Under the pieces are notes generated by a model. It searched no databases. It saw only the letters and a program-made list of their open reading frames with translations, and was not told the DNA's origin. Of a DNA stretch of 64,000 nucleotides, positions 11,241 through 43,907 are shown piece after piece. The position numbers and the translations under genes were made by a program. How positions within the stretch are numbered: the stretch's first letter is position 1; each line of letters opens with the position of its first letter. Source of the stretch: a virus; IMG/VR virus record IMGVR_UViG_3300047550_001767, positions 1-64,000 of that record. One strand, given 5' to 3'.

Positions 11241-14200
11241 TCACTTGTATTTTTTTCTGTAATATTCTTTTAACCAAGTCCATTCATAAGACTTCTTAAG
11301 TTCTTCAATATCACCCATTACTTGATCGTAGTATTCTACAGCGTCTAGTGCTCCTTGTATACTGTATTCGGAAAATTCCCCTTCTCCTACAGTTAACCAA
11401 GTTGATAATCTATCACTGGCTATGTCGCTGTAATCACTTTTTAGTTTGATGACTTCTCTAAAGGCAGTTCTCCAAGTACTATAAGGATCAGTATTAAATG
11501 TTGCAACACCACTTAGTATATCAACACTTTCATGCGGGTCATCTAGCGTAAAGTCAAGACCCTTACCCGTATTGGCTAATGTTAATTTTTTATTATAGGC
11601 AATTAACGCTTGGTGTCCATATACTAATCCGTTTACAGGATTTTTCGCATTAAAAATATAATGTTTTGGTATTTGTAATCTGTCTGGTTGCCAACCCCAA
11701 TCAAATTTATTATTGACCTTTAACTTAGCAAATACAGTAAATGCCCAAGGTGTTTGACTTGCTTCTAATGCTGCATGATAACCTTGTACACGACCGTCTA
11801 CGCCATCAACACGAACGATACGATTACTAATACCTTTAGTGACGGCTAACAGATGTTCGTAATTTTCGTCTGCGCATAGTTCACCGTTGCTGAGAAATAC
11901 GATGTCTAATGGCTTACTTTTACTTAATCTATTAGCCGTCTTGATATAAGGATAATCATACAACTCGTTCTTAACTATATCTTTTGCTTCTTTAGGAACA
12001 ATAATTCTTGAACAACCCGTACTTGTGATTACTAAATTTTTTGATTCTTTATCCCATAAACTTATTGGTTCGTCAACATAACTTGCAAAATCTTCTGTAG
12101 CAAAAATCATGTAAGGGAAACTAAAGTCAACATTTAAACTTCCAACATGAGTATCATTGTCTACACGCACAACCGGTGCTGATATTCTTTTTGCTTTTAC
12201 AGATGAATTATAAGTTACTTTTGGATACTTGCGTAAATCTTCTAATGAATTTATAATCTCTCTTGTTAGGTTTACATCAATCAAGAAAGTATCGCCAAAT
12301 TTTTGAGTTTCGCTGTAGAACACATGCAGATTATCTCTAGCAAACGGATCACATATATAACTAAAATCAAATTGTCCGTAATCGCAAATACTTGAACAGA
12401 TCCATAAGTAGTGATCTTTTTTAGTTGGTTGATTTTTTACAATAGTTTGTAAAGTTTCCAAATATGTATTATTATACTTTATAACACTTACTGTTTTGCC
12501 ATTACTTTTTAGTGTCAATAAATCTTTTACCTTGTCTGTGTCTTTATTATCATGATCAATTAATACTATATCATACAAATTATTTGTAGCAACTGCTCTA
12601 CGATCCTTGACGAAATTTAGGTTACTTAAATGCTCTATAATTTTAATATATTTTGTATCAATAGCAAATGTTTCACGATTAACTAAAAAGGTTGTGCCCC
12701 AGTGACTCCACTGTGTGCCAAACACATGTACCATTCTTGTTTGATATTGATTTGGATAATAATTAAAATTGAAGTTTGAATAATCTAATTCACTGTTTAG
12801 TATCCAGCATAGTTCTGTATTACTACGATTAATACAACGATTAATTGTATCTACCCAACTATTTAAGAAACGTGTTTTTTGTATATTAGGGAATTTTATT
12901 TTAAGTTTTTCAAAGCGATCTTTTGCTTCAATATTACCTTTGTCTACAAAGAACATATCATTAGGCTTAAAAAGTTTTGCTAGATATTCTTCATCAACAT
13001 TTGTATTTGGTTCAACATAGTTTAGGTCTGTAAATCCTTGACGATATAATGGTGCTGATACAAAGTAAGTCTGTGTTACATCATAGTCAGGACTGCCAAA
13101 TACCTGCACATAACGTGATTGATCAACAGTTGGACGCCAACTAAAATCAAAATTAGTATAATCAATATTTTCACGAACAGCCCAAAATGTTTCTTCGGGA
13201 TGTTCAAGTACTAAATCATCCAACGTTACTGTAATTGTATAAACAGGTACATATTTAATTTCTAAACGTGTAACTTCAGTTGTATTATTTTCCTTGACCT
13301 CAATCATCTCAACGATAGGTTCTTGAGTATTGCTTACATATACTCTAGGTAATTTTACAATTTCTCCCTTATTACCTGGTGCTACGTAGCGAGGACCGTC
13401 ATTCTCATTCTCAGATGTGCCAAATTGATAAATTTTTGGTTCGTATGTTGAATCAGGTAACCAACTAAAATCAAAATCAGAAACATCAACTCCGTCTGGT
13501 ATAATCCAGTTATTCATAGAAGGTTTAGTAGTTGCTCGTATAGCATCTATAAACTTTTTAAAGTTTGCTCCATCTACAGTATATATAGGACCATTACGTT
13601 GTATACCAACCATTACGTCCCATACTGTTGCAAATTCATAGATATAAGGAGGATCAGTATCATCCGGATGCCAACTAAAGTCAAAGTCTTTAATATTTTC
13701 AGGTATAGTCCAGTTATCTTTGTTAGGTAACTTTTTAGCCTTTAGCGTTGTATCATATTTGACATTAACTGCTCCGGCTACAACATAAGATGGGCCTCCC
13801 GTCTTTTGCCACTGAGTACCGAATTGATAAATCATTGGCGGGTCAGTATCGTCTGGATGCCAACTAAAGTCAAAATCTGCTATATCATTAGGTATAACCC
13901 AATTTTTATTACTTGGCAATTTAATTGCACCTTTAATATCAGTTACGTATTTGATTTCAGACGCTTCAGGCACTACATACTTTGGTCCGCCTGTCTTTTG
14001 CCATTGCGTTCCGAACTGATAAATGTAAGGTGGGGACTGTGGATGAGGTACCCAACTAAAATCAAAATTACTAGTATCTAATCCTTCTGGTATTTGCCAA
14101 TTAGACTTATCAACTTTAGTAGTTGCTTTAACATCTTCTACGTATTTGTTAAATACTGCTTCTGGTACAGTATACACCGGACCACCGCGACTATTCCATA

Positions 14201-17200
14201 CAGTGGCAAATTCATAGATATATGGTGGCTCTGTATCATCTGGGTGCCAACTATAATCAAAATCCTTAATGTTATCTGGTATAGTCCAGTTGTCCATACT
14301 AGGGAGTCTTACAGCCTTAACAGCATCTATATATTTGATTTCTATACCACCTTCTACAACATAACGAGGGCCTCCCGTTTTTTGCCATTGTGTACCGAAT
14401 TGATAAATGTACGGAGGGTCAGTATCGTCTGGATGCCAACTGTAATCAAAATCACCAATGTTTTCCGGTATACTATAATTATTCCTGTTAGGTAATTTAA
14501 TAGCACCTTTTACATCTGTTACATATGTAACTTCAGTTGCTCCCGGTACAACATATCTTGGACCACCTGTCTTTTGCCATTGTGTCCCAAATTGATAAAT
14601 GTAGGGAGGGGCTTGAGGATGCGGTACCCAACTAAAGTCAAAATTACTAGTATCAACATCATTGGGAATTTCCCAGTTATTTTTACTTGGTTTTAACGTT
14701 GCAGTTACATCTTCGATATATTTGTTAAACACTGCATCAGGCACAGTATACACCGGACCGCCGCGATTATTCCATTGAGTAGCAAACTCATAAATGTAAG
14801 GTGGTTCTGTATCGTCAGGGTGCCAACTGTAATCAAAATCTTTTATATTTTCAGGTACAGTCCAATTGTCTTTACTTGGCAATCTAGTTGCTTTTACTTT
14901 GTCAACATACTTAATATCGACAGCGCCATCTACGACATACTTTGGTCCACCCGTCTTTTGCCATTGTGTGCCGAACTGATAAATCATTGGTGGGTCAGTA
15001 TCGTCTGGATGCCAACTATAATCAAAGTTTGTAATGTTGTCAGGTATAATCCAATTCTTTTTAGTTGGTAATTTTATTGCACGTAATTGACTTACATAAT
15101 TTACGAATGTTGTGCTAGGATCAACACCGGGCGCTACATATCTTGGCCCGCCTGTTTTTTGATGTTGTGTACCAAATTGATAGACGTAAGGCGGTGCTGT
15201 ATTATCGGGGTGCCAACTAAAATCAAAACTATCAATATCTAACCCATCTGGAATTATCCAATTATCTCCTCGAGGCAGTGCCTTTGCTTTATTATCGCCG
15301 CCAACATAATTAATTTGCTTTGCACCAGGCACTTCAAATCTTATACCACCGTTATCTTGCCATTGTGTACCGAATTCATATATGTATGGAACTTCTGTGC
15401 TATCTGGATGCCAACTAAAGTCAAAGCCTGTGCTGTCAATATATTCAGGTATTACCCAACGCGGATCTTTACTGTTAGGTAAATATGTTGCTTTTTGCCA
15501 GTCAACATATTTAATTTCTGTTGCTCCGGTAACTGTATATGTAGGACCACCTGTCTTTTGCCACTGCGTACCAAATCTATAAACATAAGGCGGTTCTTTA
15601 GGACTTGGCTTCCAACTAAAATTAAACTTAGTTACATCTAAGTTTTTAGGTATAGACCAGTTGCGTCTATCTTGTCCTAATGTCGCTTTTATATGTGAAA
15701 TATATTTTTCATATATTGCACCCTCGACAACATACTTAACGGTTGGCATAATCTCTGCATCATGATACTGGTTTCCAAACAAGTAAATGTATGGAGGATC
15801 AGTATCATCCGGGTGCCAACTAAAATCAAATGATTCTATGTTATAATCATCAATAATTTCAAATTTAGATTTATTTGGTAGTGCTTGAACCTTTTGCTCA
15901 ATATATTGTGCGTGTGTCGCACCCTCAACAACATATTGAGGTCCACCTGTCTTTTGATGTTGTGTGCCTGCTATATAGATATATGGAGGGCTTGTGGGAT
16001 TAGGTACCCAACTATAATCAAACATACTATCATCAATATTTTCAGGTACTATCCAGCGAGGTTTGTTTGGGGCTAGTATTGCTTTAACACTATCAATGTA
16101 TTTGGTATGCATTGCTCCTTCAACAACATATTGTACTGTTGGCATAATTTCTGCTTCATAGAAATTGTTACCAAACTTATATACATATGGAGGGTCACTA
16201 TCATCAGGGTGCCAACTATAATCAAACTGTAGTACTGGCGCATCTATAATTTCAAACTTAGACTTATCTTCTAATTTTCTAACTTTCTTGTTAAGATACT
16301 TAATTTCATCTGCACCTTCAACTACATATTTAGGTCCACCAGTTTTTTGATGTTGTGTTCCTGTAACATAAATGTATGGTGGGTCTTTGGGGTTGGGCAC
16401 CCAACTATAATCAAACATACTATCATCAATGTTTTCTGGTACAAGCCAGCGTGGCTTATTAGGTGCTAATGTCGCTTTGATATCATTAATGTACTTGACA
16501 TACATTGCTCCTTCAACAACATATTGTACTGTTGGCATCATTTCTGCTTCGTGGAAATTATTTCCAAATTGATAAATGTATGGAGGATCGCTGTCGTCAG
16601 GATGCCAACTATAATCAAAATCACTTATTGGGGCATCTGTTATGATTTCAAATTTAGATTTATCTTCTAACTTTATAACTTTTTGTTTAAGGTATTTAAA
16701 TTCAGTAGCACCTTCTACTACAAATTTAGGACCGCCTGTCTTTTGATGCTGCGTACCTGTAACATAAATGTATGGTGGATCCTTTGGATTAGGTACCCAA
16801 CTATAATCAAATGTGCTATCGTCAATACTTTCTGGAATAATCCAGCGTGATTTATCTGATGTAAGTTTAGCCTTGACGTTATTAATATACTTGACGTACA
16901 TTGCACCTTCAACAGTATATTCTAGTGTTGGCATAATCTCTGCATCATACAATGTATTGCCAAACTGATAGATATATGGCGGATCAGTATCGTCTGGATG
17001 CCAACTATAATCAAAATCTTCTATTTCGTACTCAGTCAATTCTGCAAATTTAAGTTTGTTTGGCAGTTTCTTCACAGTCTTTTCTAGGTACTTTATTTGT
17101 GTAGCGCCGTCTACAACGTATCGCGGACCACCTGTCTTTTGATGCTGTGTACCTGCAACATAGATATATGGAGGTTCACTTGGTTTAGGTTTCCAACTAT

Positions 17201-19370: not shown

Positions 19371-19379
19371 AATGTTTAC

Positions 19380-21703: not shown

Positions 21704-21712
21704 GCATAGAAC

Positions 21713-21814
21713 TTATTTGTAAATGAAAGGATCTCTCTTACGTAATTCTTTCAATCTTTTACGATATTGAATTTCACGCATTACTTTTTTCCATAAATTT
21801 TTAAAAAATTTCAT
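21713..21814 (-). CDS. 33-aa basic peptide (absent from the ORF track)
   Basis: MKFFKNLWKKVMREIQYRKRLKELRKRDPFIYK*; GAGGTG RBS and ATAAATA (21836-21830) upstream. Confidence 0.7.
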   Translation of the reverse strand: MKFFKNLWKKVMREIQYRKRLKELRKRDPFIYK

Positions 21815-21835
21815 ATAACACCTCTTGCTTATTTA

Positions 21836-34510: not shown

Positions 34511-35489
34511 TTTGTTTTACCGGTGCACGTTTACTTATTATAATGTCAGTGCCGCAAGTACATTGCATTTTTTTACAGATGACTGGACGTGACATAAGTT
34601 GTATATCTTCATATATATTGCCTAATATGGGGCCCTGTCCACAACTCGCTGCTGTAGTATGTCCGGCACTGTTAATAAACAACGCTTCATCTACATTACA
34701 TTCCCAACCAGTAAAGAAGTTTCTGCGTTCTGCGACTATACGGTTTCCGTTTAAGGGTTGTTCTAATCCAGATTCATAAACTTCTTTACTAGCGCACTGC
34801 CACTTACTGCCTTGTGGTTTGTCTATTGTAGTTTTACTTTCAAAGGTATGAGTTTTGAAAAATTCATGCATCCAAGGTTCGCTATAGTCCCATGGTGCAA
34901 CATTAATATCAATATCGCTAAACAATGGTACCCATTCTAGGTTATAGTTTTGTAATGTTGATTTTACTTTTTCGCCAAATTCCATAACTTCTCTAAATCT
35001 ATCTTCTTGCATCATCATGCGACTACAGAGATAATTTACTTTATCCTGCAAAAATATTAGATTGTCAAGGTATCTGTCACGATTAGCAAAGTCAATATGA
35101 AAACTTGCTACTACATCGTGAAACAAATGATAATGCTCTTTCCACCATTGCGTACTACGGCTTAAATTAGTATTGATACCAATATGAGGATCATCAATAC
35201 GTTCTTTCAACCATTTAATTAGAGGTATCAAAAATGGCCAAACAGTTGGTTCGCCACCACTGAAATAAAACTTATAACCCTTCGTACCCTTACGTTCAAA
35301 CTGTGTGATAATTTTATCTAAGTTAAATTTAATTCTATCAAAATCTTCTGGTTTTCCATGTTTAGGGCCTAATCCTGCCCAATTACCCGGATTGCAGTAC
35401 TTACATTTAAAGTTACAAAAATCATTAACCTGCCAAGTGATATTGACATATGGATGATACATTGGTTTAATTTCAATTAACTTATCCAT
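34503..35489 (-). CDS. Radical SAM enzyme with a C-terminal Cys-rich domain
   Basis: CNFKCKYC, SGGEPT, NTNLS, ASFH; C-terminal WEC...ASC...CKKMQCTC. Confidence 0.88.
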   Translation of the reverse strand: MDKLIEIKPMYHPYVNITWQVNDFCNFKCKYCNPGNWAGLGPKHGKPEDFDRIKFNLDKIITQFERKGTKGYKFYFSGGEPTVWPFLIPLIKWLKERIDDPHIGINTNLSRSTQWWKEHYHLFHDVVASFHIDFANRDRYLDNLIFLQDKVNYLCSRMMMQEDRFREVMEFGEKVKSTLQNYNLEWVPLFSDIDINVAPWDYSEPWMHEFFKTHTFESKTTIDKPQGSKWQCASKEVYESGLEQPLNGNRIVAERRNFFTGWECNVDEALFINSAGHTTAASCGQGPILGNIYEDIQLMSRPVICKKMQCTCGTDIIISKRAPVKQNA

Positions 35490-36864
35490 GTTTTGCTCTA
35501 TAACCGTCTAAAAATTTCTTATAATTTTTAAATTGATTACTATAAGTTTCGTTATAAGGAATATTGATAATTGAATTTTCTAGTGCAGCCATTGTGTCTT
35601 TGTTCACAGTAAAATATTTTAAACCACTATCATGCTGTCTTGCCTTTTCTCTAATTCTAGGTATACACTTCATACGATCCTCATTTGGTATTGATGCTAA
35701 ACCCAAATATAAAGGATATGATAATGTAATAGGCCACCATTCAACACGCTTCTGATATTGCTCTGCTTCTTTTGCTAGCAAATCCCATATTTCTGTAACA
35801 TACTGATAATTTAAGGCCTGTAAAACCGTGTAGCAAAGTATACGCCAGTTAGGACGAGTACTCGCCATTTCAAATACTTTCTTAATATTTTCACGCACTA
35901 CGTCCCACTTAGTACCATAGCGTATGTATTCTGCTACACCACCAATACCGTCAATACTCATCTGTATTTCAACGTTATCAAAATTACTTAAAGCCTCATA
36001 GAATTTTGGATTCCATGTTGTCATATTGGTCGTAAATTCAATCTTACAGTTTCTATTTCCTGCTGCAATTAATTCTTCAAACATCTTATAGTTTGCTTTA
36101 ATAAGTGTTGGCTCGCCTCCCGTCGTGTATAGGCGTCGCAATTTAGGTGCCATACGTCTAAAGTTTTTATAAAACATTTCTGTTTCATACCATTCAGTAA
36201 TTTCGCTTTTTTCTACAAGATCGTAATCATCTTGCCACTTATCCTGTAACCAATCTAGTTTTTGTTCTTTTAGCACGCCTGATTTTAAAATCTCTTTACG
36301 CTCATCTTGAATAAGTGAACTACTCATGCCCCAACATGTTATACATTTTAAATTACATTGATTGCCCAAACGTAACTCAAGGCTTAAAGGTAGCATGTCT
36401 AACACGCTATACATCTTTTTGTTTATACCATCATATTCTGTAATACTGTTTAAATGATTTGATAATTCATTATCATTTTCTTGTCTTATCAACCACATTT
36501 TATTTTGTCCTTTTCTAGGACTGTGGCCACTTACTTTTTCCATTTTATAACAATCTAAACAATCTCCAGATCCATTATTTTGTCTATGTAGATCACGCAC
36601 GTTTTGCATATGATCTGAATTCCAGATTGTGTCGATATCATCATATCCTAAATTAAAAGGCTTTGCAGGTTTACCATAACCTACAAAATAATCCATAGCG
36701 ATACTACAACATAATTTGACATTACCGTTTGGATTCGTATTAAGATTGAGCCATGGCAGTACACAAAACTTCTTCATGTTTCCTGCTAGCCAATTAATTT
36801 TTTTATCGCTTGGTACGTCTTCAGGAACTTTAGGTACAGCGTGAACTACCCAATTTAAATCCAT
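35482..36864 (-). CDS. Radical SAM enzyme with an N-terminal SPASM/twitch-like domain
   Basis: FCVLPW...LCC...CLDC then CNLKCITC, TGGEP, TTN, SIDG. Confidence 0.88.
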   Translation of the reverse strand: MDLNWVVHAVPKVPEDVPSDKKINWLAGNMKKFCVLPWLNLNTNPNGNVKLCCSIAMDYFVGYGKPAKPFNLGYDDIDTIWNSDHMQNVRDLHRQNNGSGDCLDCYKMEKVSGHSPRKGQNKMWLIRQENDNELSNHLNSITEYDGINKKMYSVLDMLPLSLELRLGNQCNLKCITCWGMSSSLIQDERKEILKSGVLKEQKLDWLQDKWQDDYDLVEKSEITEWYETEMFYKNFRRMAPKLRRLYTTGGEPTLIKANYKMFEELIAAGNRNCKIEFTTNMTTWNPKFYEALSNFDNVEIQMSIDGIGGVAEYIRYGTKWDVVRENIKKVFEMASTRPNWRILCYTVLQALNYQYVTEIWDLLAKEAEQYQKRVEWWPITLSYPLYLGLASIPNEDRMKCIPRIREKARQHDSGLKYFTVNKDTMAALENSIINIPYNETYSNQFKNYKKFLDGYRAKHG

Positions 36865-38066
36865 AGTGGTTTTAACTCCGGAAATGTTATTGTTAAATTT
36901 TCATTTCTTAAATTGTCGATTGTAGTTATCACTGCCTTAAATTCAGGAATCAATTCTCTATGATCTGCGCTATCCATATAATCTAGTATACCCTTTACGG
37001 CGTGTATTGTTTGTGGCCAAGCATTATTATCAGTTAACCACTGTATATACTTTTCATATAATTTGTGTACTTCCTTTTTTTGCTCTGGGGTTAACATTGT
37101 AATACTAAAGTAACGCGGATGTGTTAATATGTTAACACGAATGTTATTGATATTCAAGAGTCCTTCTTCGACCCAAGTTCTGTGAAAATCAAAAAGGCTA
37201 TATACACTGAATATACTTACTGTGGGGGTTATTTCAAAATAAACATCTGGGCAACTTTCAATCATCTGTCTACGATTCTTTACAATACGATCCCAGTCTG
37301 TGCCTTTACGACTATATTCTGCACGATCTCCATATGTATCTAAACTTGCTGCGACACGTACATCCTTAAACATTTTCCAATAATCTAATATTGACTTCTC
37401 TTTTAATTTTAAGGCACTAAAGTTAGTAGTATAACGTAGACGTACATCTGTTCTGCCCTTTTCTAACCAATAGTCTAATACTTGGTAGTGTTGCGGTGTG
37501 ATTAATGCTTCGCCACCAGCAAAGTAAACTTCTTCAACATAATCTAAATGCTGTTTTAAATCATCCATAAAAAATGGATTATTCTTTAAATCAATAAACT
37601 TAGATTTGGACCAAGTGGGGAACATCTTTACTTGATCGTCGTACCAACTGCTACTTAAATCAGGGCCGCACGTTCTACAGCGCATGTTGCATAAATTACT
37701 AAAACGTATATCCATATAATACATTTTGTAATCATTTATACTACCATCGTCATTTGTCTTGTCAAACAAATCCATATGATTACTAAAACTTTCTAAACTA
37801 TTTTTTCTTAATGTCCAACTATCTGCGCTTGTCTCTAATTCGTAACAACGCATACATGCTTTTGGTTTTTCGCCATTTAGCATTTGTCTGCGCAGTTCTT
37901 TAAATTTTTCATTATTGATTAATTTGTTAATATCTTCCTTATAGACATTACCAAATACCTCGCTACTATCGCTCATACAGCAAGGAAATGTATTTCCATT
38001 TGGCCATATATGCATATGCATCCAAGGCATTAAACATACAACATTTTTATCTATTGATTTACTCAT
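36855..38066 (-). CDS. Radical SAM enzyme with an N-terminal SPASM/twitch-like domain
   Basis: CLMPW...PCC...CMRC then CNMRCRTC, AGGE, TTN, SLD. Confidence 0.88.
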   Translation of the reverse strand: MSKSIDKNVVCLMPWMHMHIWPNGNTFPCCMSDSSEVFGNVYKEDINKLINNEKFKELRRQMLNGEKPKACMRCYELETSADSWTLRKNSLESFSNHMDLFDKTNDDGSINDYKMYYMDIRFSNLCNMRCRTCGPDLSSSWYDDQVKMFPTWSKSKFIDLKNNPFFMDDLKQHLDYVEEVYFAGGEALITPQHYQVLDYWLEKGRTDVRLRYTTNFSALKLKEKSILDYWKMFKDVRVAASLDTYGDRAEYSRKGTDWDRIVKNRRQMIESCPDVYFEITPTVSIFSVYSLFDFHRTWVEEGLLNINNIRVNILTHPRYFSITMLTPEQKKEVHKLYEKYIQWLTDNNAWPQTIHAVKGILDYMDSADHRELIPEFKAVITTIDNLRNENLTITFPELKPLWI

Positions 38067-39298
38067 GTTATTAATTCTTCTAGTTCCGGAAATACATTTG
38101 CAAATTGTTCTTCACGTAAATTATCTAAATGTGATGTTTCCTTCTGAAATTGCTCTTTATGTCTTTCCCAAGTGTTATCTGCTAAAACCCATTTTTTAGC
38201 ATCAACTAATGGCTGTACATGATGTGGTTTAAACCCCATCATTTTCATACGTGTAATCACAGTTTCAATACCTTCTATCCCCTGTATTTTAAGATGTACA
38301 GGTAATGCCAATGCTGCTATATGTTCAGGGCTTATCATGTTGTAAATGGTGTTTGATCTATCTTCAGGGGTATAAAAATTCTTATTTAAGAGATAATGAT
38401 AGAAAGTACTAAAGGTAACAAAGTTAAAAATGCTTAATACACTGTTTATTTGTGTAGCAACATAGGGAACACTTTTTACTTTTTTAAAGTTTTCTTCAAT
38501 TTGTTTCCAGTCTGTGCCTTTGCGCATGTATTCTGCTCTTGATCCATAATGATCTAGGCTAGCATAAACTTCTATCTTTTTAGTAAAGTGACTCCACAAA
38601 TCTAATAGGTCTTTATTTTTAAATTTTAAATTACTCAAGTTAGTATTATATCTTAATCTAACATCAGTACGTCCCTGACGTATCATTTCTTCAAGCATAA
38701 TATAATGTTCTTCTGTAATTAATGGTTCTCCGCCTGCAAAATATGCCATTGTTATATGTGGAATCTGTTGTAGTACATCATCTACATATTTGCTACGGTT
38801 ATCTTTATCAATTGTTATAATTGTTCGACCTTGCTTTGCATCTTCATTTTCCCATTGACTACTATAATGACTATTACAAGTTCTACATTTCATATTACAT
38901 ATATTGCTTAAACGCAAATCAAAATAGCGCATTTTAAATTTGCCTATTTCTCCTGTAATATCGGTCGATGCTAATGCTTCGTCAAAAAATTGACCAAACA
39001 TCTGTTCTTCGTTCATATTATTTCTAAAACTATAAATGCCTTGTTCTTCATGTCTATGACAGGCTTTACAAATAGGATTTTTTATACCTTCTAGCATATC
39101 TCTACGCAATTCTTTCATTGCTTCGCTATTCACTAATTCTATTAGTGATTTTTCGTTTGCGTTTCCTACAGGATATAATTGATTACCAATGCAACAAGGA
39201 GTGCCTACACCAACAGGAGTAACATGCATACTAACCCAGGGAAGCATACAAAAACTTCCGTTTTTAGTTAATAACTCTTCTTCTGGTGTATACTTCAT
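38063..39298 (-). CDS. Radical SAM enzyme with an N-terminal SPASM/twitch-like domain
   Basis: FCMLPW...PCC...CKAC then CNMKCRTC, AGGEP, NTN, SLD. Confidence 0.88.
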   Translation of the reverse strand: MKYTPEEELLTKNGSFCMLPWVSMHVTPVGVGTPCCIGNQLYPVGNANEKSLIELVNSEAMKELRRDMLEGIKNPICKACHRHEEQGIYSFRNNMNEEQMFGQFFDEALASTDITGEIGKFKMRYFDLRLSNICNMKCRTCNSHYSSQWENEDAKQGRTIITIDKDNRSKYVDDVLQQIPHITMAYFAGGEPLITEEHYIMLEEMIRQGRTDVRLRYNTNLSNLKFKNKDLLDLWSHFTKKIEVYASLDHYGSRAEYMRKGTDWKQIEENFKKVKSVPYVATQINSVLSIFNFVTFSTFYHYLLNKNFYTPEDRSNTIYNMISPEHIAALALPVHLKIQGIEGIETVITRMKMMGFKPHHVQPLVDAKKWVLADNTWERHKEQFQKETSHLDNLREEQFANVFPELEELIT

Positions 39299-40698
39299 TG
39301 CAATGGATTCAATCTATTTGTTTCTTGGCAAATTCTATAAAAATTTAAAAGTTCAGGAAATATTTCAAGCATATTTGTGTCTCTGCGCTCATCCAACTCA
39401 TTGAACCAATTATAGAAATCTCTACGTCCTTCTATTAATTTATCTTCATCATATTGAGTTTCACGCATATAATCAACCACACGTTTAAACTTTTCATATT
39501 CAATCGTGCTAAATTTTTTGCTTGACTTATCATCTACATTTTCTTTCATAAAATCTAATGCTTCTTCCATAAAAGGCATAAACTCGCCTTTGGGTAAAAT
39601 ATTCATGTCATACTGGAGTGGCTCACGTAGATAAGGAGTATCAAATCTTACGCGGTGTTGTGGGTTGATGGGGTCATCATACCAATCATACATATTACGC
39701 CACTCCAATATTTTTTGTAGTAATAATTTAAAAGATGTTACACTAAACAAATTAAATGTAATCATAAAGGTTACAGGACTGTTTGTGATACTCAAATATG
39801 TGTGCAAGTTTTTTTCCCATAATTCTATATCAAGGCCTGTACGATTATATTCTGCTCTTGGGCCCCAAGTATCGATACTTGAGAAAAGTTTAAATGCTCT
39901 AATTTTCCCTTCGTCACTTAACTTTCTAACCGCCTTACTCATTTTTTCTACAAGTGCAGTCTTTGTACCTAAATTGCTATTAATGTTAAGTTCAAGCCAG
40001 GGCATAGGATCTTTATCAATTTCATCAAGCACTTGATATGTACTTCTATGCATAGTAGGCTCACCACCAGTTATACGCATGATGTTTAATGTCTTGCGTA
40101 ACTCAGGCCACCATTTCCAGAACGCATCAACGTAAGGGTTTTCTTCTTCACGCTGATATAGTTTCATCCAGTCAATATCACAGCGGTGATTTTTTACGCT
40201 TGTGACAGGACCATGTTCTTTGATTTCTTGATAGAAACGTGTTGAATATTTTGGATGACAGTACCCGCATTTGAAGTTACATTCATTACCGAAATTAATT
40301 TCAAGGTATTCTGGATTAATATTTTGTTCGTGACTACCCTTAGCACATTGATTAAAACGTTCATCTGTAAAAATACTTGCATTTCTAATGTGGCGGTCGC
40401 TTACGTAATCAGGACCCATATCCTCTACGTTCCAACAATATTGACAGCCAGAAGGACGTTTGCCCTCTAACATCATTTTTCGTTCTTCTTTTTTCTCTTT
40501 AGTATTGTGTAATGCTGACGGATTGTCTACTAATTCCTCTAGTGGAATCTTATGAGGGCGGGGGTGATAGCAACTATGTGTCTCACCCGATTGTAAGTAC
40601 ATAGTGACATGATGCCACTTTGCTAAACAAAAAGTTGACGTTGCTTGATTTTCAACTACTACTTTTATTTCTTTAATTCTGTCAATCTCATAACTCAT
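39295..40698 (-). CDS. Radical SAM enzyme with an N-terminal Cys-rich domain
   Basis: FCLAKW...SCYH...CQYC then CNFKCGYC, TGGEP, NSN, SID. Confidence 0.88.
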   Translation of the reverse strand: MSYEIDRIKEIKVVVENQATSTFCLAKWHHVTMYLQSGETHSCYHPRPHKIPLEELVDNPSALHNTKEKKEERKMMLEGKRPSGCQYCWNVEDMGPDYVSDRHIRNASIFTDERFNQCAKGSHEQNINPEYLEINFGNECNFKCGYCHPKYSTRFYQEIKEHGPVTSVKNHRCDIDWMKLYQREEENPYVDAFWKWWPELRKTLNIMRITGGEPTMHRSTYQVLDEIDKDPMPWLELNINSNLGTKTALVEKMSKAVRKLSDEGKIRAFKLFSSIDTWGPRAEYNRTGLDIELWEKNLHTYLSITNSPVTFMITFNLFSVTSFKLLLQKILEWRNMYDWYDDPINPQHRVRFDTPYLREPLQYDMNILPKGEFMPFMEEALDFMKENVDDKSSKKFSTIEYEKFKRVVDYMRETQYDEDKLIEGRRDFYNWFNELDERRDTNMLEIFPELLNFYRICQETNRLNPLQ

Positions 40699-41654
40699 TA
40701 CCAGCCCTCTATTTTTCTTATGACATCCATTTCTTTTACTAATGGGCCTAAGTTATGTTTGTCGGAGTTATAGTGTCGTTTAAAAAACTTACTTTGTTCT
40801 GCATCAAGTGTGCATATAGGTAAATCTAATTTATTCTGTAAAATATCGCCCAATCGGTCACTTTCGGTAACCGGACGCATATGCTTAAAAATACCATCCC
40901 ACATTTTTTGTAAGTTGTCGAACCACATTACATTTTTATGATCCCAAATTGTCAACATAGTCATGTAAGTACCAAGACGTGCGCCATATATAGCCCAATC
41001 TCCGTTCTCTACATCCATGCCAACATTATGCCATATAGTTAAATTATTGAGGTTACGTGATGCTACTCTTGTTTTAAATTCGTCAACTGTTGGTCTAGCG
41101 CCGGCGTCTAAACACATTTTAACTCCCTCACGAAATCCTGCACGCCATGCTTGAAATGGTGTACCATTGGGGTAAGTAGTACTATAACAATCGTACATAG
41201 CCCAATAAAGATTGTCTGCACTATCCATACAAAAATCTACTTGTGTGGCCGAACTACCGTCTGTATGTTCATGTGTACGCATGTTAAACACATATTCTTT
41301 TGTCCAACTGCTCATGCCACCGTTGCCGTAACGTAATCCATTAATATTATTTGTAGCCTTCCAGCGAAACTGTGCTTTTTTATAAATTGGATCAAGACCA
41401 GTAAAGTCAAGTTGAATATTGAAAAAATCAGGTGTAGGTAAATTGTCGCCGTCAATTAATATAAAACGATCAGTCTCACTTGCTTCTGCTGCTGCTTTAT
41501 GTGCGGCATCACTACCCTTTACGCCATCAACACGTTTAGCATATGGGCATAATTCATTTTTTATTTTATGCCAAAAATGTTCTTTTTGTGGCTCATCATA
41601 ACTTAGATATATGCAATCTAAGTCAACAACATCTACTATGTCATCCCAACTCAT
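40698..41654 (-). CDS. GT-A-fold glycosyltransferase-like protein
   Basis: IYLSYDEP, RVDGVKG..AAHKAAA, FILIDGDN (DxD), WRAGFREGVK. Confidence 0.65.
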   Translation of the reverse strand: MSWDDIVDVVDLDCIYLSYDEPQKEHFWHKIKNELCPYAKRVDGVKGSDAAHKAAAEASETDRFILIDGDNLPTPDFFNIQLDFTGLDPIYKKAQFRWKATNNINGLRYGNGGMSSWTKEYVFNMRTHEHTDGSSATQVDFCMDSADNLYWAMYDCYSTTYPNGTPFQAWRAGFREGVKMCLDAGARPTVDEFKTRVASRNLNNLTIWHNVGMDVENGDWAIYGARLGTYMTMLTIWDHKNVMWFDNLQKMWDGIFKHMRPVTESDRLGDILQNKLDLPICTLDAEQSKFFKRHYNSDKHNLGPLVKEMDVIRKIEGW

Positions 41655-41994
41655 ATGTTATTAACACCCATTGGGTAATTTCAATACTACCATCATCAAC
41701 TATAATACTAATATCTTCTTTAGCACATTTATTGCCTAAAAGACTGTCTGGTTGTAACTTGCTTATAATTGCAGAAGGATTTACTGTTGATAAGCGACCG
41801 TTGATAACTCTAACATCAGGGCGAGCTGTAGCAAAAGTAATAGCATCAATAACTATGTATTTGCCTTCAGGTTTCTCGCAGGTATAAAATAATACTTTAC
41901 CGTTTTCTTCTTCGTAATATAAACGAAATTCGGGAGCCTCAATTTTAGGTGCCTCAAACAATAAGACATAATCTTCTGTTTCATCTTGATTCAT
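41641..41994 (-). CDS. Hypothetical protein
   Basis: 117-aa ORF overlapping both neighbours. Confidence 0.7.
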   Translation of the reverse strand: MNQDETEDYVLLFEAPKIEAPEFRLYYEEENGKVLFYTCEKPEGKYIVIDAITFATARPDVRVINGRLSTVNPSAIISKLQPDSLLGNKCAKEDISIIVDDGSIEITQWVLITYELG

Positions 41995-42785
41995 ATAGAC
42001 TTCTCTATTTCATAGGCAAATTTTTTCACATGATAGTGAAAAGGATACATTTGCGGTACGGTATTTATACGTAAAGTATGAGGTAATATTTCATAAATTA
42101 AAACGTCTGTCCAATCTTCACTAGGCGTGCCATTAATATGTTGCTTCATGTGCACCATAGACATTTCTGGATAATTAGGTAATGTTGTATGTTCTATTCC
42201 TATGATGTGCGCTGCTATCGCATATGCCCAGTCAGTAGTAACAGGCTCAGTAGGACTGCATTTAAGCATAGCACGAAATTCAGGCCAGTTTTCAAAAACC
42301 ATTCTAACGATTTTAAAAAATGTTTCAGCAACATTACTTTTCTTAAAGTATGTTATAGCGTTATAAACATTAGGTAGTTTATTATCTTCAATAAACCGAC
42401 GATAAAATTTCTGTTTACTAATTTCTTGCTTAAAATCTCTTATGTGTGTGCTTACCACTAAATCTTTATGCTTTAAAATATCCCACCAAGGTTCTATTGA
42501 TTTTGGCAAATACAAATCTGCTTCAAGTTTAATAGTATATTCATAAGGACTTGCTTCATAAACTTGCCAGTCATTGATAAGTTTCCAGTTACCGCCTTTA
42601 TCCAAATCTCCATATGGCAAGGCTATCACGCTATCAAAATAACTTGCATCATCTACTTCATCACTAATTAAAGAAACTTTTGCGTCTGGCATATGTTTTT
42701 TAATACTATAAGCCAGCATTTCAGCACATTTAACATAGTTAACAAACTCTGTGTTTTGTGCTAAGATTACAAATCCTTTATCCAT
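41991..42785 (-). CDS. GT-A (GT8-like) glycosyltransferase-like protein
   Basis: A..LAYSIK, SPYEYTIKLEADL (ExD variant), VHMK; paralog of 42778..43605. Confidence 0.55.
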   Translation of the reverse strand: MDKGFVILAQNTEFVNYVKCAEMLAYSIKKHMPDAKVSLISDEVDDASYFDSVIALPYGDLDKGGNWKLINDWQVYEASPYEYTIKLEADLYLPKSIEPWWDILKHKDLVVSTHIRDFKQEISKQKFYRRFIEDNKLPNVYNAITYFKKSNVAETFFKIVRMVFENWPEFRAMLKCSPTEPVTTDWAYAIAAHIIGIEHTTLPNYPEMSMVHMKQHINGTPSEDWTDVLIYEILPHTLRINTVPQMYPFHYHVKKFAYEIEKSI

Positions 42786-43605
42786 TTTTAATTAACTCCA
42801 CATAAATGTCTTTATTCATTACGTGAAAATCCATATCTTTTATAGTAATAAATTCTTTTCTTATTTTACCACGCTGCCAATTGTCAAACAATACAGTATA
42901 TTCTGTATTGTAAGGAGAGTTACTTGCTGCGATAACATTAGTATTTTTACCTACGTGCATTAAATTCCATGGTATAATATCTTGAGGTGCTATAGTATGA
43001 CCATTTACTATACGTAATGCTAAAGTTAATGCATAATCATTTCTAAAAATATTTGCTAAAAAGTGATGCATGTTTGCGTAGTGACCAAAATTATTTTGTA
43101 TCATTTCAATACAATTGAAGATTTGTTCTGCACGTTCTGTTTTTTTAAAAGCAACTACTGTTGCCCATAATGTTTTATAACTGTATACACTTAATACTTC
43201 TTGCGGTAATCTAGGCTGCATGAAATACTCTGTGTTGTCATGGCAACAAAAATCATCGTACAAATCAAAACATTTTAACAACTTGTCGCTATTAACAACA
43301 TAATCAACATCAAGTAATAAAGTTTCTTTATAAGGACTTAATTTATAGGCTTGATATCTTCCTTTATTAATCCAAGGCGCGCCGTCTCTATTATTATTTT
43401 TATCTGCCGTGACTAATTTTACTTTATCAAATTTATAATCTGAAATGGCGCTATTTAAAGTCTCTTTATCAGTAACTAATGTAACTGGCAAATTTAAAAA
43501 ATGATTTATACGCTGGGCAGTATGAACTGCCATGTCATAATAATTATACTTGGTATTGTTAAATGCAAAAAGTATCGCACCGCGACTTTTCTTTCCGCGT
43601 TTCAT
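42778..43605 (-). CDS. GT-A (GT8-like) glycosyltransferase-like protein
   Basis: SPYKETLLLDVDY (DxD), WATVVAFKK, FRND, HVMNK. Confidence 0.6.
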   Translation of the reverse strand: MKRGKKSRGAILFAFNNTKYNYYDMAVHTAQRINHFLNLPVTLVTDKETLNSAISDYKFDKVKLVTADKNNNRDGAPWINKGRYQAYKLSPYKETLLLDVDYVVNSDKLLKCFDLYDDFCCHDNTEYFMQPRLPQEVLSVYSYKTLWATVVAFKKTERAEQIFNCIEMIQNNFGHYANMHHFLANIFRNDYALTLALRIVNGHTIAPQDIIPWNLMHVGKNTNVIAASNSPYNTEYTVLFDNWQRGKIRKEFITIKDMDFHVMNKDIYVELIKNG

Positions 43606-43907
43606 CTCTTTGCCTCTAACTCATTCCATTCTTTTAACCACTCAGTCATAGTCTGTTGATAAACAGATTTTAATTTATGTAGTAAATCTTCTCTATTAAT
43701 TTTAACGGGATTATTAAAGGTATCCATAACGACTATTTCATCGTCATCAAAAGAATTTAATAAAGTTATAGTTTGCTGATCTGCTTTCCATAAGCCACCT
43801 TGATCAGCCAAAGTTAGTCTACTATCATATTTTTCTTTTAAGTAGGCTTTCGCTGAATTGTGACTAAATCTAGCCTTTGATTCGGCTAATAAAGTTTTGA
43901 CATCCAT
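43602..43907 (-). CDS. Hypothetical protein
   Basis: 101 aa, AAGGAG RBS, CTAAATA at 43950-43944. Confidence 0.75.
   Translation of the reverse strand: MDVKTLLAESKARFSHNSAKAYLKEKYDSRLTLADQGGLWKADQQTITLLNSFDDDEIVVMDTFNNPVKINREDLLHKLKSVYQQTMTEWLKEWNELEAKR

What the first reader, a model, noticed from the sequence alone, without database searches (positions are those of the whole stretch)
11241..43907. A ~33-kb phage-encoded pathway combining aminoglycoside-type tailoring chemistry with glycosyltransferases, directly behind the tail genes
Seen: about 25 co-oriented, mostly overlapping genes. They encode three GT-A-like proteins, three of a second GT-like family, six radical SAM enzymes, a B12 radical SAM enzyme, an NDP-sugar dehydrogenase, a DegT aminotransferase, an amidinotransferase, a carbamoyltransferase, four SGNH-like proteins and a giant repeat protein, with TAAATA late-promoter motifs in several gaps. 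Established: these families tailor sugars and cyclitols in aminoglycoside pathways (StrS/StrB1 amination and amidination, TobZ carbamoylation, GenK/GenD1 B12 methylation, BtrN/NeoN radical dehydrogenation and epimerisation). Inference: the phage builds a heavily modified (guanidinylated, carbamoylated, methylated, acylated) glycan late in infection, most plausibly to decorate the virion. Alternatives are host-surface remodelling, DNA hypermodification or a small molecule. I know of no characterised phage pathway with this enzyme set.
Basis: partly seen in the sequence, partly recalled or inferred. Interest (0 to 1): 0.88.

Follow-up and report, generated by a model that had tools for sequence, protein, structure and literature searches.

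The report
Jumbo-phage radical-SAM glycan-tailoring operon
An uncultured freshwater giant phage carries, directly after its tail-fibre genes, a 33-kb late operon of soluble sugar-transferring and sugar-editing enzymes, including a streptomycin-type amidinotransferase and six radical SAM enzymes; it most likely builds an unusual glycan, but neither the product nor its target has been identified.

Summary
The observation largely holds. Window 11241-43907 (minus strand) has 24 co-oriented genes plus a 33-codon micro-ORF, and 17 of 23 junctions overlap.

Confirmed here:
- five N-terminal-twitch radical SAM enzymes (NCBIfam NF033640) plus a sixth radical SAM enzyme
- a B12-radical SAM enzyme
- an NDP-sugar dehydrogenase
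- a 196-aa mini-DegT
- a StrB1-like amidinotransferase (E 1e-64 to PDB 1BWD)
- a NodU/TobZ-type carbamoyltransferase
- a 2709-aa repeat protein
- GT-A and GT-B folds, by structure prediction, for two of the three glycosyltransferase (GT)-like families. The third is GT8-like by language-model similarity only.

The four "SGNH" proteins rest on a GDS motif alone.

No cluster protein has a transmembrane helix. The core (two small proteins, three GT-A-like genes, first radical SAM) sits behind the fibre genes in all 80 related IMG/VR loci and in cultured Ralstonia phage RsoM2USA. Everything after it is a hypervariable enzyme cassette.

Best reading: a cytoplasmic, late-expressed pathway builds and edits a glycan on a soluble acceptor, probably virion fibre proteins. 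The target is inferred, not shown. DNA hypermodification, a small molecule and protein cross-linking remain open.

This scan has already reported the same operon type in many other phage genomes. The additions here are the StrB1/mini-DegT pair and the pseudo-GT repeat giant.

The parts
43976..46524 (-). Three fibre-type structural genes just upstream of the operon: g45910 (phrog_11259), g44950 (fibre N-terminus plus Peptidase_G2 intramolecular-chaperone C-terminus) and g43976 (29% Ser+Thr). They are candidate glycan acceptors.
   Evidence: conserved in 50-79 of 80 related loci
43602..43907 (-). First gene of the operon, a 101-aa soluble protein of unknown function. It is preceded by a CTAAATA motif in the 68-nt gap.
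   Evidence: present in 79/80 loci
41991..43605 (-). Two paralogous GT-A-like (GT8/Nucleotid_trans-like) genes, g42778 and g41991. A D-x-D Asp, two His and a Lys are invariant across both.
   Evidence: homologues are RsoM2USA gp353 and gp352
41641..41994 (-). 117-aa conserved core protein of unknown function.
40698..41654 (-). GT-A-fold transferase with an IDGDN motif and a helical C-terminal domain. It is the most conserved enzyme of the operon (72-85% identity in 199 IMG/VR contigs).
33254..40698 (-). Six tandem radical SAM genes. Five are NF033640 N-terminal-twitch enzymes (39295, 38063, 36855, 35482, 33254). The sixth is 328 aa with a C-terminal Cys-rich tail (34503).
31777..33257 (-). Two paralogues (43% identical) that begin MKIV(A/G)FGDSF. 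They are putative SGNH-type esterases or acyltransferases, on motif evidence only.
   Evidence: no HMM or PDB support
30535..31773 (-). Family C GT-B-fold glycosyltransferase, copy 1.
29690..30538 (-). GCSF-motif protein, a distant relative of the putative SGNH set.
28436..29644 (-). NDP-sugar dehydrogenase (UDP-Glc/GDP-Man dehydrogenase family), preceded by AATAAATA.
27252..28403 (-). Family C GT-B-fold glycosyltransferase, copy 2. This is the copy that was modelled (pLDDT 82).
25003..27249 (-). B12-binding radical SAM enzyme (class B, probably a methylase) with a roughly 300-aa C-terminal extension of unknown function.
24429..25019 (-). 196-aa mini-DegT (PLP sugar-aminotransferase family). 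It keeps the SFxxxK lysine motif and the DAA aspartate and lacks the C-terminal domain.
   Evidence: 52-54% identical 195-197-aa homologues in a cyanophage and IMG/VR loci
23458..24429 (-). StrB1-type amidinotransferase.
21836..23497 (-). Family C GT-B-fold domain (C-terminal half) with an N-terminal extension of unknown function. Copy 3.
21713..21814 (-). 33-codon micro-ORF with its own Shine-Dalgarno sequence and the invariant motif YRKR.K...KRDPFIY. In four other loci it lies directly upstream of the carbamoyltransferase.
20858..21703 (-). GDSF-motif protein, a putative SGNH-like enzyme on motif evidence only.
19380..20861 (-). NodU/CmcH/TobZ-family carbamoyltransferase.
11241..19370 (-). 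2709-aa protein with about 30 tandem 63-68-aa units (FD[FY]SWHPD..PPYIY.FG.Q). The units resemble the segment after the DxD motif of g40698. It ends in g40698-like domains that have lost DxD.
8203..9288 (-).

Best explanation
The block is a late-expressed, entirely soluble glycan-assembly and glycan-editing operon of a Rak2/GAP32-related freshwater jumbo myophage.

Proposed scheme:
1. A conserved core lays down and first modifies a short core glycan on a cytoplasmic acceptor. The core is two small proteins, two GT8-like and one GT2-like GT-A enzymes, and the first N-twitch radical SAM enzyme.
2. A hypervariable cassette then extends and edits that glycan. Here it holds four or five more radical SAM enzymes, three or four GT-B enzymes, an NDP-sugar dehydrogenase, a B12 radical SAM methylase, a mini-DegT aminotransferase, a StrB1-type amidinotransferase, a carbamoyltransferase with its micro-peptide, and putative esterases or acyltransferases.
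3. The predicted product is uronic, aminated then guanidinylated, carbamoylated and C-methylated.
4. The acceptor is most likely a virion protein made at the same time, meaning the adjacent Ser/Thr-rich fibre proteins or the giant fibre.
5. The operon ends with a giant protein made of repeated, catalytically dead GT-A pieces. This may bind or carry the glycan.

What is shown: the enzyme families and folds, their solubility, the synteny, the hypervariability and the promoter-like motifs.

What is inferred: the order of steps, the chemistry of the radical SAM enzymes, and the acceptor.
For: Folds and families:
- GT-A, GT-B and GT8-like.
- NDP-sugar dehydrogenase, DegT and carbamoyltransferase.
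- StrB1 homology at E 1e-64.

Related cassettes in the same slot carry these NDP-sugar genes:
- a NTP_transf_3 plus APH kinase fusion
- a sugar C-methyltransferase (Methyltransf_14)
- a mannose-6-P-isomerase-like cupin
- a HAD phosphatase

In other phages, family C is fused to NDP-sugar epimerase/dehydratase or methyltransferase domains.

Solubility: no protein of the cluster has a hydrophobic 19-mer above KD 1.6. I recognised no flippase, polymerase or polyprenyl-phosphate transferase.

Synteny:
- The core follows the fibre genes in 80/80 IMG/VR loci.
- It does the same in cultured RsoM2USA, gp353-348. The homologue there of the upstream giant protein (ORF361) is a virion protein by mass spectrometry (PMC8504454).
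- The downstream content is hypervariable between otherwise similar phages, as in surface-glycan loci.

Expression signals: late-promoter-like NATAAATA in the gaps and a gp55 late sigma factor on the contig.

Against the DNA route: complete relatives have one canonical ThyA (354-360 bits) and no TET/JBP gene over the family cut-off.

Precedent for virus-encoded virion glycosylation: mycobacteriophages (Freeman 2023, as cited in PMC12619734) and PBCV-1 A64R, which is among the fold hits.
Against: - No glycan, glycoprotein or acceptor site has been observed, and no expression data exist.
- The fold matches are modest (Foldseek E 1e-4 to 1e-2, VIA Z about 8). For g40698 they do not separate GT-A from nucleotidyltransferases except through the DGD motif.
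- The NF033640 family has no characterised member. SPASM/twitch enzymes are better known from peptide maturation.
- DNA glycans are also added late, before packaging (PMC13326640), so late promoters do not exclude DNA as the target.
- In cyanophage S-SCSM2R the mini-DegT and amidinotransferase pair sits among auxiliary metabolic genes near psbA, not by fibre genes.
- No sugar-1-phosphate nucleotidyltransferase is present in this particular cassette, so the donors would have to come from the host.
Confidence: 0.5

Rival explanations
1. DNA hypermodification: the transferases glycosylate a modified base in phage DNA before packaging, and the tailoring enzymes edit the DNA-bound sugar to block host nucleases.
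For: - Phage GT-A and GT-B enzymes do build diverse glycans on 5hmC (bioRxiv 10.1101/2023.12.21.572611).
- Such transfers occur late (PMC13326640).
- TarP, a structural neighbour of the DNA GT-A enzymes, is a weak fold hit of g40698.
- Hypervariability would fit an arms race with restriction systems.
- An amino-methyltransferase with an SPPY motif lies just downstream at 9364-10635.
Against: - Known DNA-glycan clusters sit next to a C5-methyltransferase plus 5mYOX/TET pair, or next to a ThyA-like hydroxymethylase.
- Four near-complete relatives have a single ThyA scoring 354-360 bits, as a canonical enzyme would. None has a TET/JBP match over cut-off.
- The operon is embedded in the fibre/baseplate module, not the replication module.
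- A 2709-aa repeat protein has no place in such a pathway.
Confidence: 0.13
2. Small-molecule (aminoglycoside-like or other guanidino-glycoside) biosynthesis: the phage makes a diffusible or host-directed metabolite during infection.
For: - The amidinotransferase is closer to StrB1 of streptomycin biosynthesis than to glycine amidinotransferases.
- DegT, carbamoyltransferase, B12 radical SAM and radical SAM tailoring enzymes are typical of aminoglycoside and nucleoside antibiotic clusters (established knowledge).
- The authors of S-SCSM2R called the homologous pair 'antibiotic synthesis genes' (PMC12801897).
- All the enzymes are soluble.
Against: - I recognised no cyclitol synthase, inositol dehydrogenase, exporter or resistance gene in the cluster.
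- Seven glycosyltransferase-fold genes are far more than such molecules need.
- The fixed position behind the fibre genes, the late-type promoters and a terminal giant structural-looking protein fit poorly with a secreted metabolite.
Confidence: 0.12
3. Protein or peptide maturation by the radical SAM array (RiPP-like cross-linking, epimerisation or methylation of a virion protein or of the giant repeat protein), with glycosylation secondary.
For: - SPASM/twitch radical SAM enzymes and the best sub-threshold matches of the B12 enzyme (RiPP C-methyltransferase, ApyD) are peptide maturases.
- SunS and ThuS, which are peptide S-glycosyltransferases, are among the best fold matches of g40698. They share its GT-A plus helical-domain layout.
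- A repeat protein with near-invariant Ser, Trp and His per unit ends the operon.
- A conserved micro-peptide is present.
Against: - The five enzymes fit NF033640, not any peptide-maturase model. All those scores are far below cut-off.
- No RRE-like domain or Cys-rich precursor was seen. The repeat protein has 12 Cys in 2709 residues.
- The remaining enzymes are sugar enzymes.
- In bacterial metagenome-assembled genomes (MAGs), tandem arrays of the family occur without the repeat protein.
Confidence: 0.1
4. Remodelling of the host cell surface (LPS, capsule or peptidoglycan) during infection, for example for superinfection exclusion.
For: - Phage glycosyltransferases and acetyltransferases commonly alter O-antigens (established knowledge).
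- The hypervariable content resembles O-antigen loci.
Against: - No transmembrane segment occurs in any of the 25 products, and I recognised no flippase, polymerase or lipid-carrier transferase.
- The phage looks strictly lytic, T4-like.
- Late expression shortly before lysis gives little time for surface change to matter.
Confidence: 0.07

Closest known systems
Mycobacteriophage virion glycosylation (Che8/Corndog/Myrna type; Freeman et al. 2023, PMC10527164, as cited in PMC12619734)
   Same: Phage-encoded soluble glycosyltransferases sit next to structural genes. They act in the cytoplasm on virion proteins made late.
   Different: Those systems have a few GTs and at most methyl or acetyl tailoring. 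They have no radical SAM array, amidinotransferase, carbamoyltransferase or repeat giant. No sequence relationship was tested here, and glycosylated virions are not shown for this phage.
Chlorovirus PBCV-1 capsid glycosylation (A64R and partners) and giant-virus fibril glycans (PMC9614988)
   Same: A virus encodes its own cytoplasmic, host-independent glycan machinery, including sugar-nucleotide tailoring. The A64R GT-A domain is a structural neighbour of g40698.
   Different: Those are eukaryotic viruses. Similarity is at fold level only (10-20% identity over about 140 residues), and radical SAM chemistry is absent there.
Streptomycin pathway pair StsC (DegT-type aminotransferase) and StrB1 (inosamine-phosphate amidinotransferase, PDB 1BWD)
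   Same: The amidinotransferase is a full-length StrB1 homologue with the catalytic Cys motif. It is adjacent to, and overlaps, a DegT-family gene, which suggests amination followed by amidination.
   Different: The DegT is a 196-aa truncated form. No cyclitol-forming or inosamine-kinase gene is present, and the context is a glycan operon in a phage. The substrate is unknown and is more conservatively an amino sugar.
NCBIfam NF033640, N_Twi_rSAM (twitch domain-containing radical SAM protein)
   Same: Five of the six radical SAM proteins match end to end, well above cut-off.
   Different: The family is defined by sequence only, and I found no characterised member. None of 14 model genomes has one.
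Phage DNA glycan hypermodification clusters (Pyle et al., bioRxiv 10.1101/2023.12.21.572611; PMC13326640)
   Same: These are phage GT-A and GT-B enzymes with variable sugar chemistry that act late on a soluble macromolecule.
   Different: Those clusters are anchored on a C5-MT plus 5mYOX pair or on a ThyA-like hydroxymethylase. Neither was found in relatives. The papers do not mention radical SAM, carbamoyl or amidino enzymes.
Ralstonia phage RsoM2USA gp353-gp348 (MG752970)
   Same: Orthologous minimal version in a cultured phage, in the same position after the giant virion protein and the fibre genes. It has two GT8-like genes, a small gene, a g40698 orthologue (42%), an N-twitch radical SAM gene (35%) and a second DGD-bearing g40698 paralogue.
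   Different: It has only one radical SAM gene, no variable cassette and no repeat giant. All six genes are annotated as hypothetical and are unstudied.

Membership tests
NF033640 N_Twi_rSAM | Full-length match to the family HMM above the curated cut-off (170 bits) | tested here: met
   Scores are 398, 349, 312, 278 and 266 bits for g36855, g38063, g39295, g33254 and g35482. g34503 scores only 48 bits and is not a member.
NF033640 N_Twi_rSAM | N-terminal Cys-rich twitch/SPASM-like domain followed by a radical SAM core with CX3CX2C | tested here: met
   Pfam SPASM matches residues about 11-106 ahead of Radical_SAM in three of the five. The Cys columns and the CX3CX2C motif are invariant in the five paralogues.
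Radical SAM enzymes of aminoglycoside pathways (BtrN, NeoN, GenK, GenD1, AprD4) | Sequence membership in the corresponding curated models | tested here: not met
   No BtrN, NeoN or GenK model appears among the hits. AprD4 (NF033070) scores 22 bits against a cut-off of 500 for the B12 enzyme. The best B12 hits are RiPP C-methyltransferase and PhpK models, both below cut-off.
Amidinotransferase (StrB1/AGAT, pentein superfamily) | Full-length homology to solved amidinotransferases and the C-terminal catalytic Cys in a GGxFHC motif | tested here: met
   E 1.4e-64 to 1BWD over residues 5-322. E about 1e-41 to AGAT. GGCFHCVT aligns with GGGFHCAT.
DegT/DnrJ/EryC1/StrS aminotransferase | Complete fold-type-I PLP enzyme of about 360-400 aa with the Schiff-base Lys | tested here: inconclusive
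   Pfam scores 41 bits (cut-off 19.8) but covers only profile positions 163-235 of 360. The protein is 196 aa. The SFQFQK lysine motif and the DAA Asp are present by eye. The short form is conserved in other phages. Activity is untested.
NodU/CmcH/TobZ carbamoyltransferase | Carbam_trans_N plus Carbam_trans_C domains above cut-off | tested here: met
   115 and 164 bits against cut-offs of 24 and 27. It is not an equivalog of NodU itself: 128 bits against a cut-off of 1000.
GT-A fold glycosyltransferase (g40698) | Nucleotide-diphospho-sugar transferase fold with a DxD motif after the fourth strand | tested here: met
   AF2 model pLDDT 76. Foldseek top hits are GT2 enzymes (PcManGT, SunS, RmlT, HAS, A64R) at E 2e-4 to 1e-2. 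VIA Z is 7-8.5 over residues about 7-165. These values are modest, and nucleotidyltransferases score equally. The DGD motif is at least 90% conserved in 30 orthologues. No CAZy family assignment is possible: Pfam Glyco_tranf_2_2 gives E 0.098.
GT8 / Nucleotid_trans GT-A (g42778, g41991) | Family HMM match or GT-A fold with DxD and a C-terminal HxxxxK motif | tested here: inconclusive
   No Pfam or PDB profile match. ESM-Atlas feature similarity is 0.96 to clusters carrying PF03407 and PF01501. Invariant residues are D101, H217, H261 and K265.
GT-B fold glycosyltransferase (family C) | Two Rossmann-like domains matching solved GT-B enzymes over the whole chain | tested here: met
   AF2 model pLDDT 82, pTM 0.83. 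All top Foldseek hits are GT-B enzymes (BshA, SPS, VldE, OtsA, TarM, SdgB, phage HY126 GT) with probability 0.96-1.0 and 350-420 aligned columns. The GT10 assignment is a lead only, 0.79.
SGNH/GDSL hydrolase | Blocks I (GDS), II (G), III (GxND) and V (DxxH), or a family HMM or fold match | tested here: inconclusive
   Block I, a Gly block and a late His are visible. Block III is not evident. There is no Pfam, PHROG or PDB-profile match.
Phage DNA-glycan hypermodification system | Co-occurring C5-MT plus 5mYOX/TET pair, or a ThyA-like pyrimidine hydroxymethylase | tested here: not met
   No Tet_JBP match reaches the cut-off in four near-complete relatives. Each has one ThyA at 354-360 bits. The window's own genome is only about 26% complete, so this rests on relatives.
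Lipid-linked polysaccharide (Wzx/Wzy or ABC) pathway | Membrane initiating transferase, flippase or polymerase, or transporter | tested here: not met
   No hydrophobic 19-residue segment above KD 1.6 occurs in any cluster protein, and there are no such Pfam families.

The most novel reading that the evidence does not exclude
A widespread clade of freshwater jumbo phages decorates its own fibres with a guanidinylated, carbamoylated, C-methylated glycan. The glycan backbone is rewritten by an array of N-twitch radical SAM enzymes, which would be a new class of oxygen-independent carbohydrate-editing catalysts. The cassette is swapped between strains like an O-antigen locus. A giant protein made of about 30 dead GT-A acceptor subdomains serves as the glycan carrier or reader on the virion.
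Probability: 0.25. Interest if true: 0.9.

Novelty: new variant of a known kind. Interest (0 to 1): 0.72.

Why it matters
Virus-encoded glycosylation is known from chloroviruses, giant viruses, a few mycobacteriophages and phage DNA. None of these uses radical SAM chemistry, amidination or carbamoylation.

Here a very common group of freshwater phages devotes up to a tenth of a roughly 340-kb genome to such a pathway. At least 199 IMG/VR contigs carry it, and near-identical DNA occurs in about 10 independent studies. The group keeps a fixed core and shuffles the rest.

If the product is on the virion, three things follow:
- Glycan coats would be a general and diversifying feature of large phages. 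That would bear on adsorption, stability and grazing or immune recognition.
- The untested NF033640 family would get its first substrate class.
- New enzymes for anaerobic sugar editing and for making guanidino-sugars would become available.

A cultured phage, RsoM2USA, carries the minimal core, so the central question can be tested directly.

Tried and rejected
- Megablast of the cluster against cultured phages: no match.
- Profile searches of families A, C and g40698 against PDB sequences: nothing meaningful.
- Profile and per-member Pfam search of the GDS-motif proteins: nothing. SGNH therefore stays unverified.
- Relaxed Pfam scan (E up to 10) of ten unexplained proteins and the micro-peptide: only noise, plus Glyco_tranf_2_2 at E 0.098 for g40698. 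My recollection that the micro-peptide resembles SxtK/DUF5989 peptides next to carbamoyltransferases is not supported by Pfam. It is a lead from memory only.
- Complex prediction of the carbamoyltransferase with the 33-aa peptide: no verdict, score 0.00. This is not evidence either way.
- The look-up of sequencing runs: no RNA holder listed. Two 'RNA-Seq' metagenome runs are probably DNA, so there is no expression evidence.
- Bacterial context of N-twitch radical SAM arrays:
  - The first genome-contig scan found nothing.
  - The second found 287 relatives.
  - Three neighbouring bacterial proteins checked against PDB gave only a PhoX phosphatase and two blanks, which was uninformative.
- An alignment of the five paralogues was too divergent to seed a scan.
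- Exact TATAAATA as operon promoter: only five copies in the window, none in the cluster's gaps. The gap motifs are the looser NATAAATA/CTAAATA.
- Literature: no paper on NF033640 function or on this operon in jumbo phages. The 'moraphage' lineage paper concerns a different clade.

Full report
**What the DNA is**

The window is the first 64 kb of an 88.7-kb linear viral contig. CheckV-type completeness is about 26%.

Beyond the window the contig encodes several T4-type proteins:
- a gp6-like baseplate wedge (phrog_10646, E 5e-257)
- gp25-like and gp5-like baseplate proteins
- a gp55-type late sigma factor
- gp47/gp46 nuclease subunits

The wedge protein is 31-35% identical to those of the Rak2/GAP32/121Q/Atu_ph07 group of 340-490-kb jumbo myophages. 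Near-identical DNA is present in freshwater, sediment and reservoir metagenomes of about ten studies.

**Anatomy of the finding**

All genes run on the minus strand. Transcription passes in this order:
1. a 6569-aa fibre-like protein (46689-66398)
2. three fibre-type genes: g45910, g44950 with a Peptidase_G2 intramolecular-chaperone C-terminus, and g43976 with 29% Ser+Thr
3. the block 43907 to 11241

That block holds 24 ORFs plus a 33-codon micro-ORF. By the coordinates, 17 of 23 junctions overlap.

Gaps longer than about 30 nt carry NATAAATA or CTAAATA. These sites lie before g45910, g44950, g43976, g43602, g28436 and the micro-ORF, and further down before 10635 and 7075. The gaps make up about 2% of the sequence but hold about 9 of the 39 minus-strand TAAATA. 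Exact TATAAATA is depleted in the window, 5 found against 16 expected.

**Families that are solid**

- Six radical SAM genes lie in an unbroken array, all with CX3CX2C.
  - Five have the auxiliary Cys-rich domain at the N-terminus.
  - They match NCBIfam NF033640 (N_Twi_rSAM) end to end at 266-398 bits against a cut-off of 170.
  - They are old paralogues, 20-36% identical to each other.
- g25003 is a B12-binding radical SAM enzyme. Its best matches, all below cut-off, are RiPP C-methyltransferase and PhpK-type methylases.
- g28436 is an NDP-sugar dehydrogenase.
- g19380 is a NodU/CmcH/TobZ-family carbamoyltransferase.
- g23458 is invisible to Pfam. It is nevertheless a full-length homologue of StrB1, the inosamine-phosphate amidinotransferase of streptomycin biosynthesis (E 1.4e-64, catalytic GGxFHC conserved). 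It is closer to StrB1 than to glycine amidinotransferases.
- g24429 overlaps g23458 and is a DegT-family protein of only 196 aa.
  - It keeps the SFxxxK lysine and the DAA aspartate.
  - The same short form, 52-54% identical, sits beside the same amidinotransferase (55-62%) in cyanophage S-SCSM2R and in other IMG/VR phages.

**The unannotated families**

All-against-all BLAST defines three families. None hits Pfam, PHROG function or PDB by sequence profile.

- g40698 was modelled with 30 orthologues (pLDDT 76).
  - It has an N-terminal nucleotide-diphospho-sugar transferase (GT-A) domain followed by a helical domain.
  - Its neighbours are GT2 enzymes: PcManGT, the peptide S-glycosyltransferases SunS and ThuS, RmlT, hyaluronan and cellulose synthases, and the PBCV-1 capsid-glycosylating A64R.
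  - The scores are modest (E 2e-4 to 1e-2, Z 7-8.5). Cytidylyltransferases of the same superfamily score alike.
  - The nearly invariant IDGDN motif favours a glycosyltransferase.
- Family C (g30535, g27252, g21836, and g8203 outside the stated range) models well (pLDDT 82).
  - It aligns over its whole length with GT-B glycosyltransferases only.
  - In other phages the same fold is fused to NDP-sugar epimerase/dehydratase or methyltransferase domains.
- Family A (g42778, g41991) is GT8/Nucleotid_trans-like by ESM-Atlas features (0.96). It has an invariant Asp of a DxD and a His...His..Lys pattern. I could not fold it.
- The four 'SGNH-like' proteins begin with GDSF or GCSF and share a Gly block and a late His. 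Nothing else supports the assignment.

**The giant protein**

g11241 has about 30 units of 63-68 aa, FD[FY]SWHPD..PPYIY.FG.Q...GGP.Y.V.

Its last roughly 220 residues are homologous to g40698 (E 7e-5) and to RsoM2USA gp348 (E 6e-17). The DGD and YGNGG motifs are replaced, and the same replacement is found in the homologue of another phage. By eye, the repeat unit resembles the segment that follows DxD in g40698.

The family has at least 338 members of 1.5-3.3 kaa in metagenomes, all unnamed. None occurs in cultured phages.

**Comparative evidence**

- g40698 has 199 relatives at 72-85% identity in IMG/VR, on contigs up to 361 kb.
- In the 80 loci fetched, the stretch g45910...g39295 is present in essentially all, in the same order.
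- Everything after the first radical SAM gene differs between phages. It ranges from one to five further radical SAM genes, with or without the B12 enzyme. It can also hold carbamoyltransferase, family C copies or entirely different genes.
- In relatives those different genes include:
  - a nucleotidyltransferase plus APH-type kinase fusion
  - an NDP-sugar C-methyltransferase
  - a mannose-6-P-isomerase-like cupin
  - a HAD phosphatase
  - a shikimate-dehydrogenase-like protein
  - DUF6071 and DUF7796 proteins
- Several loci end with a g11241-like protein.
- Cultured Ralstonia phage RsoM2USA has the minimal version, gp353-348, behind its 2541-aa virion protein and fibre genes. That giant protein is in the virion by mass spectrometry. 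The six genes are unstudied (PMC8504454).
- The particular cassette of this window is real. Contigs from other studies cover 20.5-37 kb of it with 0-11 differences per piece.

**What it most likely does**

- The enzyme set is that of sugar activation, transfer and tailoring.
- No product has a transmembrane segment, and I recognised no lipid-carrier, flippase or polymerase function. Assembly must therefore occur on a soluble acceptor in the cytoplasm.
- Three features point to virion proteins as acceptor, as in mycobacteriophages and chloroviruses: the fixed position after the fibre genes, the late-type promoter motifs with a gp55 sigma factor, and O-antigen-like hypervariability.
- Chemically I infer the following steps:
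  - a uronic acid step (dehydrogenase)
  - keto-sugar amination (mini-DegT), then amidination to a guanidino group (StrB1-like enzyme)
  - O- or N-carbamoylation
  - C-methylation (B12 enzyme)
  - several H-abstraction-initiated edits by the N-twitch enzymes (epimerisation, dehydration, oxidation or C-C bond formation)
- None of these steps is shown.

**Rivals**

- DNA hypermodification is the main rival.
  - Phage GT-A and GT-B enzymes do build glycans on DNA, and late.
  - Those clusters are anchored on C5-MT/5mYOX or ThyA-like hydroxymethylases. Four near-complete relatives have only one canonical ThyA and no TET/JBP.
- A small guanidino-glycoside is suggested by StrB1 and by the cyanophage authors. 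It lacks cyclitol, export and resistance genes, and seven GT-fold genes are too many for it.
- Peptide maturation is suggested by the SPASM-like domains and the SunS-like fold. The five enzymes fit no maturase model, however.
- Host-surface remodelling is disfavoured because there are no membrane parts.

**Extra observations**

- A 33-aa peptide (MKFFKNLWKKVMREIQYRKRLKELRKRDPFIYK) has its own ribosome-binding site. Its C-terminal motif is invariant where it lies directly before the carbamoyltransferase in three other phages and, in a fourth (L064), at the end of the fetched stretch. Here an inserted GDS-motif gene separates the two. A complex prediction gave no verdict.
- N-twitch radical SAM genes also form tandem arrays of up to eight in bacterial MAGs of Bacteriovoracaceae, Bacteroidota and Elusimicrobia, without the phage GT core. 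Some 'MAG' contigs with the full phage module are probably mis-binned phages.

**Relation to earlier scan notes**

- This scan has reported the same operon type many times in other genomes. Earlier follow-ups reached the same 'glycan decoration, target unknown' reading. They flagged the micro-peptide and the RsoM2USA core, and I re-checked both here.
- New in this window:
  - the StrB1-type amidinotransferase with its mini-DegT, which links it to cyanophage clusters
  - fold evidence for GT-A and GT-B
  - the DxD-less repeat giant as the conserved terminal gene
  - the absence of TET or hydroxymethylase genes in complete relatives

**Verdict**

A glycan pathway is likely, the virion target is plausible but unproven, and the aminoglycoside analogy is valid only for the amination/amidination pair.
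- This is a new variant of virus-encoded glycosylation. It is widespread, unstudied and testable in a cultured relative.

Noticed in passing
window 7582-7967 (-): Phage-encoded two-piece (circularly permuted) tmRNA with tag ANDETFALAA. It matches Rfam tmRNA_permuted (129 bits) and beta_tmRNA (124 bits). The betaproteobacterial type, together with the Ralstonia-phage kinship, hints at a betaproteobacterial freshwater host.
   Followed up: partly
window 10796-10840 (-): Rfam COG2908 RNA motif (73 bits, gathering score 58.7). It lies just downstream of an exact TATAAATA (10848-10855), in the 224-nt gap between speD and the SPPY-motif methyltransferase gene. Its role in a phage is unknown.
   Followed up: no
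window 21713-21814 (-): Unannotated 33-codon ORF with an invariant C-terminal YRKR.K...KRDPFIY motif, conserved next to carbamoyltransferase genes in other phages. From memory it resembles SxtK/DUF5989 small proteins found beside bacterial carbamoyltransferases, but without their membrane helix. Pfam did not confirm this.
   Followed up: partly
window 46689-64000 and on to 66398 of the contig (-): A single 6569-aa ORF follows the baseplate wedge gene. It is distantly similar to the 2541-aa virion protein ORF361 of RsoM2USA.
   Followed up: no
window 3-4392 (-): NAD-salvage and other auxiliary genes: NadE-type NAD synthase (568-1320), a kinase plus HxGH nucleotidyltransferase fusion resembling a rearranged NadR (3619-4392), a MoxR-type AAA ATPase (1396-2508) and DUF2201_N (3-500).
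   Followed up: no
window 7088-7639, 9364-10635 and 10860-11234 (-): Just past the operon lie an Asp/Asn-hydroxylase-type cupin oxygenase, an SPPY-motif amino-methyltransferase (weak match to a PHROG DNA methyltransferase) and SpeD. Whether the first two act on the same product as the operon is unknown.
   Followed up: no
L100, L120, L128, L142 (bacterial MAG contigs): Tandem arrays of 5-8 N-twitch radical SAM genes occur in Bacteriovoracaceae, Halobacteriovoraceae and Elusimicrobia MAGs. Some are fused to large extra domains (681-1078 aa in L120). They lack the phage GT core.
   Followed up: partly
L098 (Haliscomenobacter MAG contig, 148 kb): Carries the full phage-type module: g41991, g41641, g40698 at 61%, several radical SAM genes, GT-B copies and a carbamoyltransferase at 61%. 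It is probably a jumbo-phage contig binned into a bacterial MAG.
   Followed up: no
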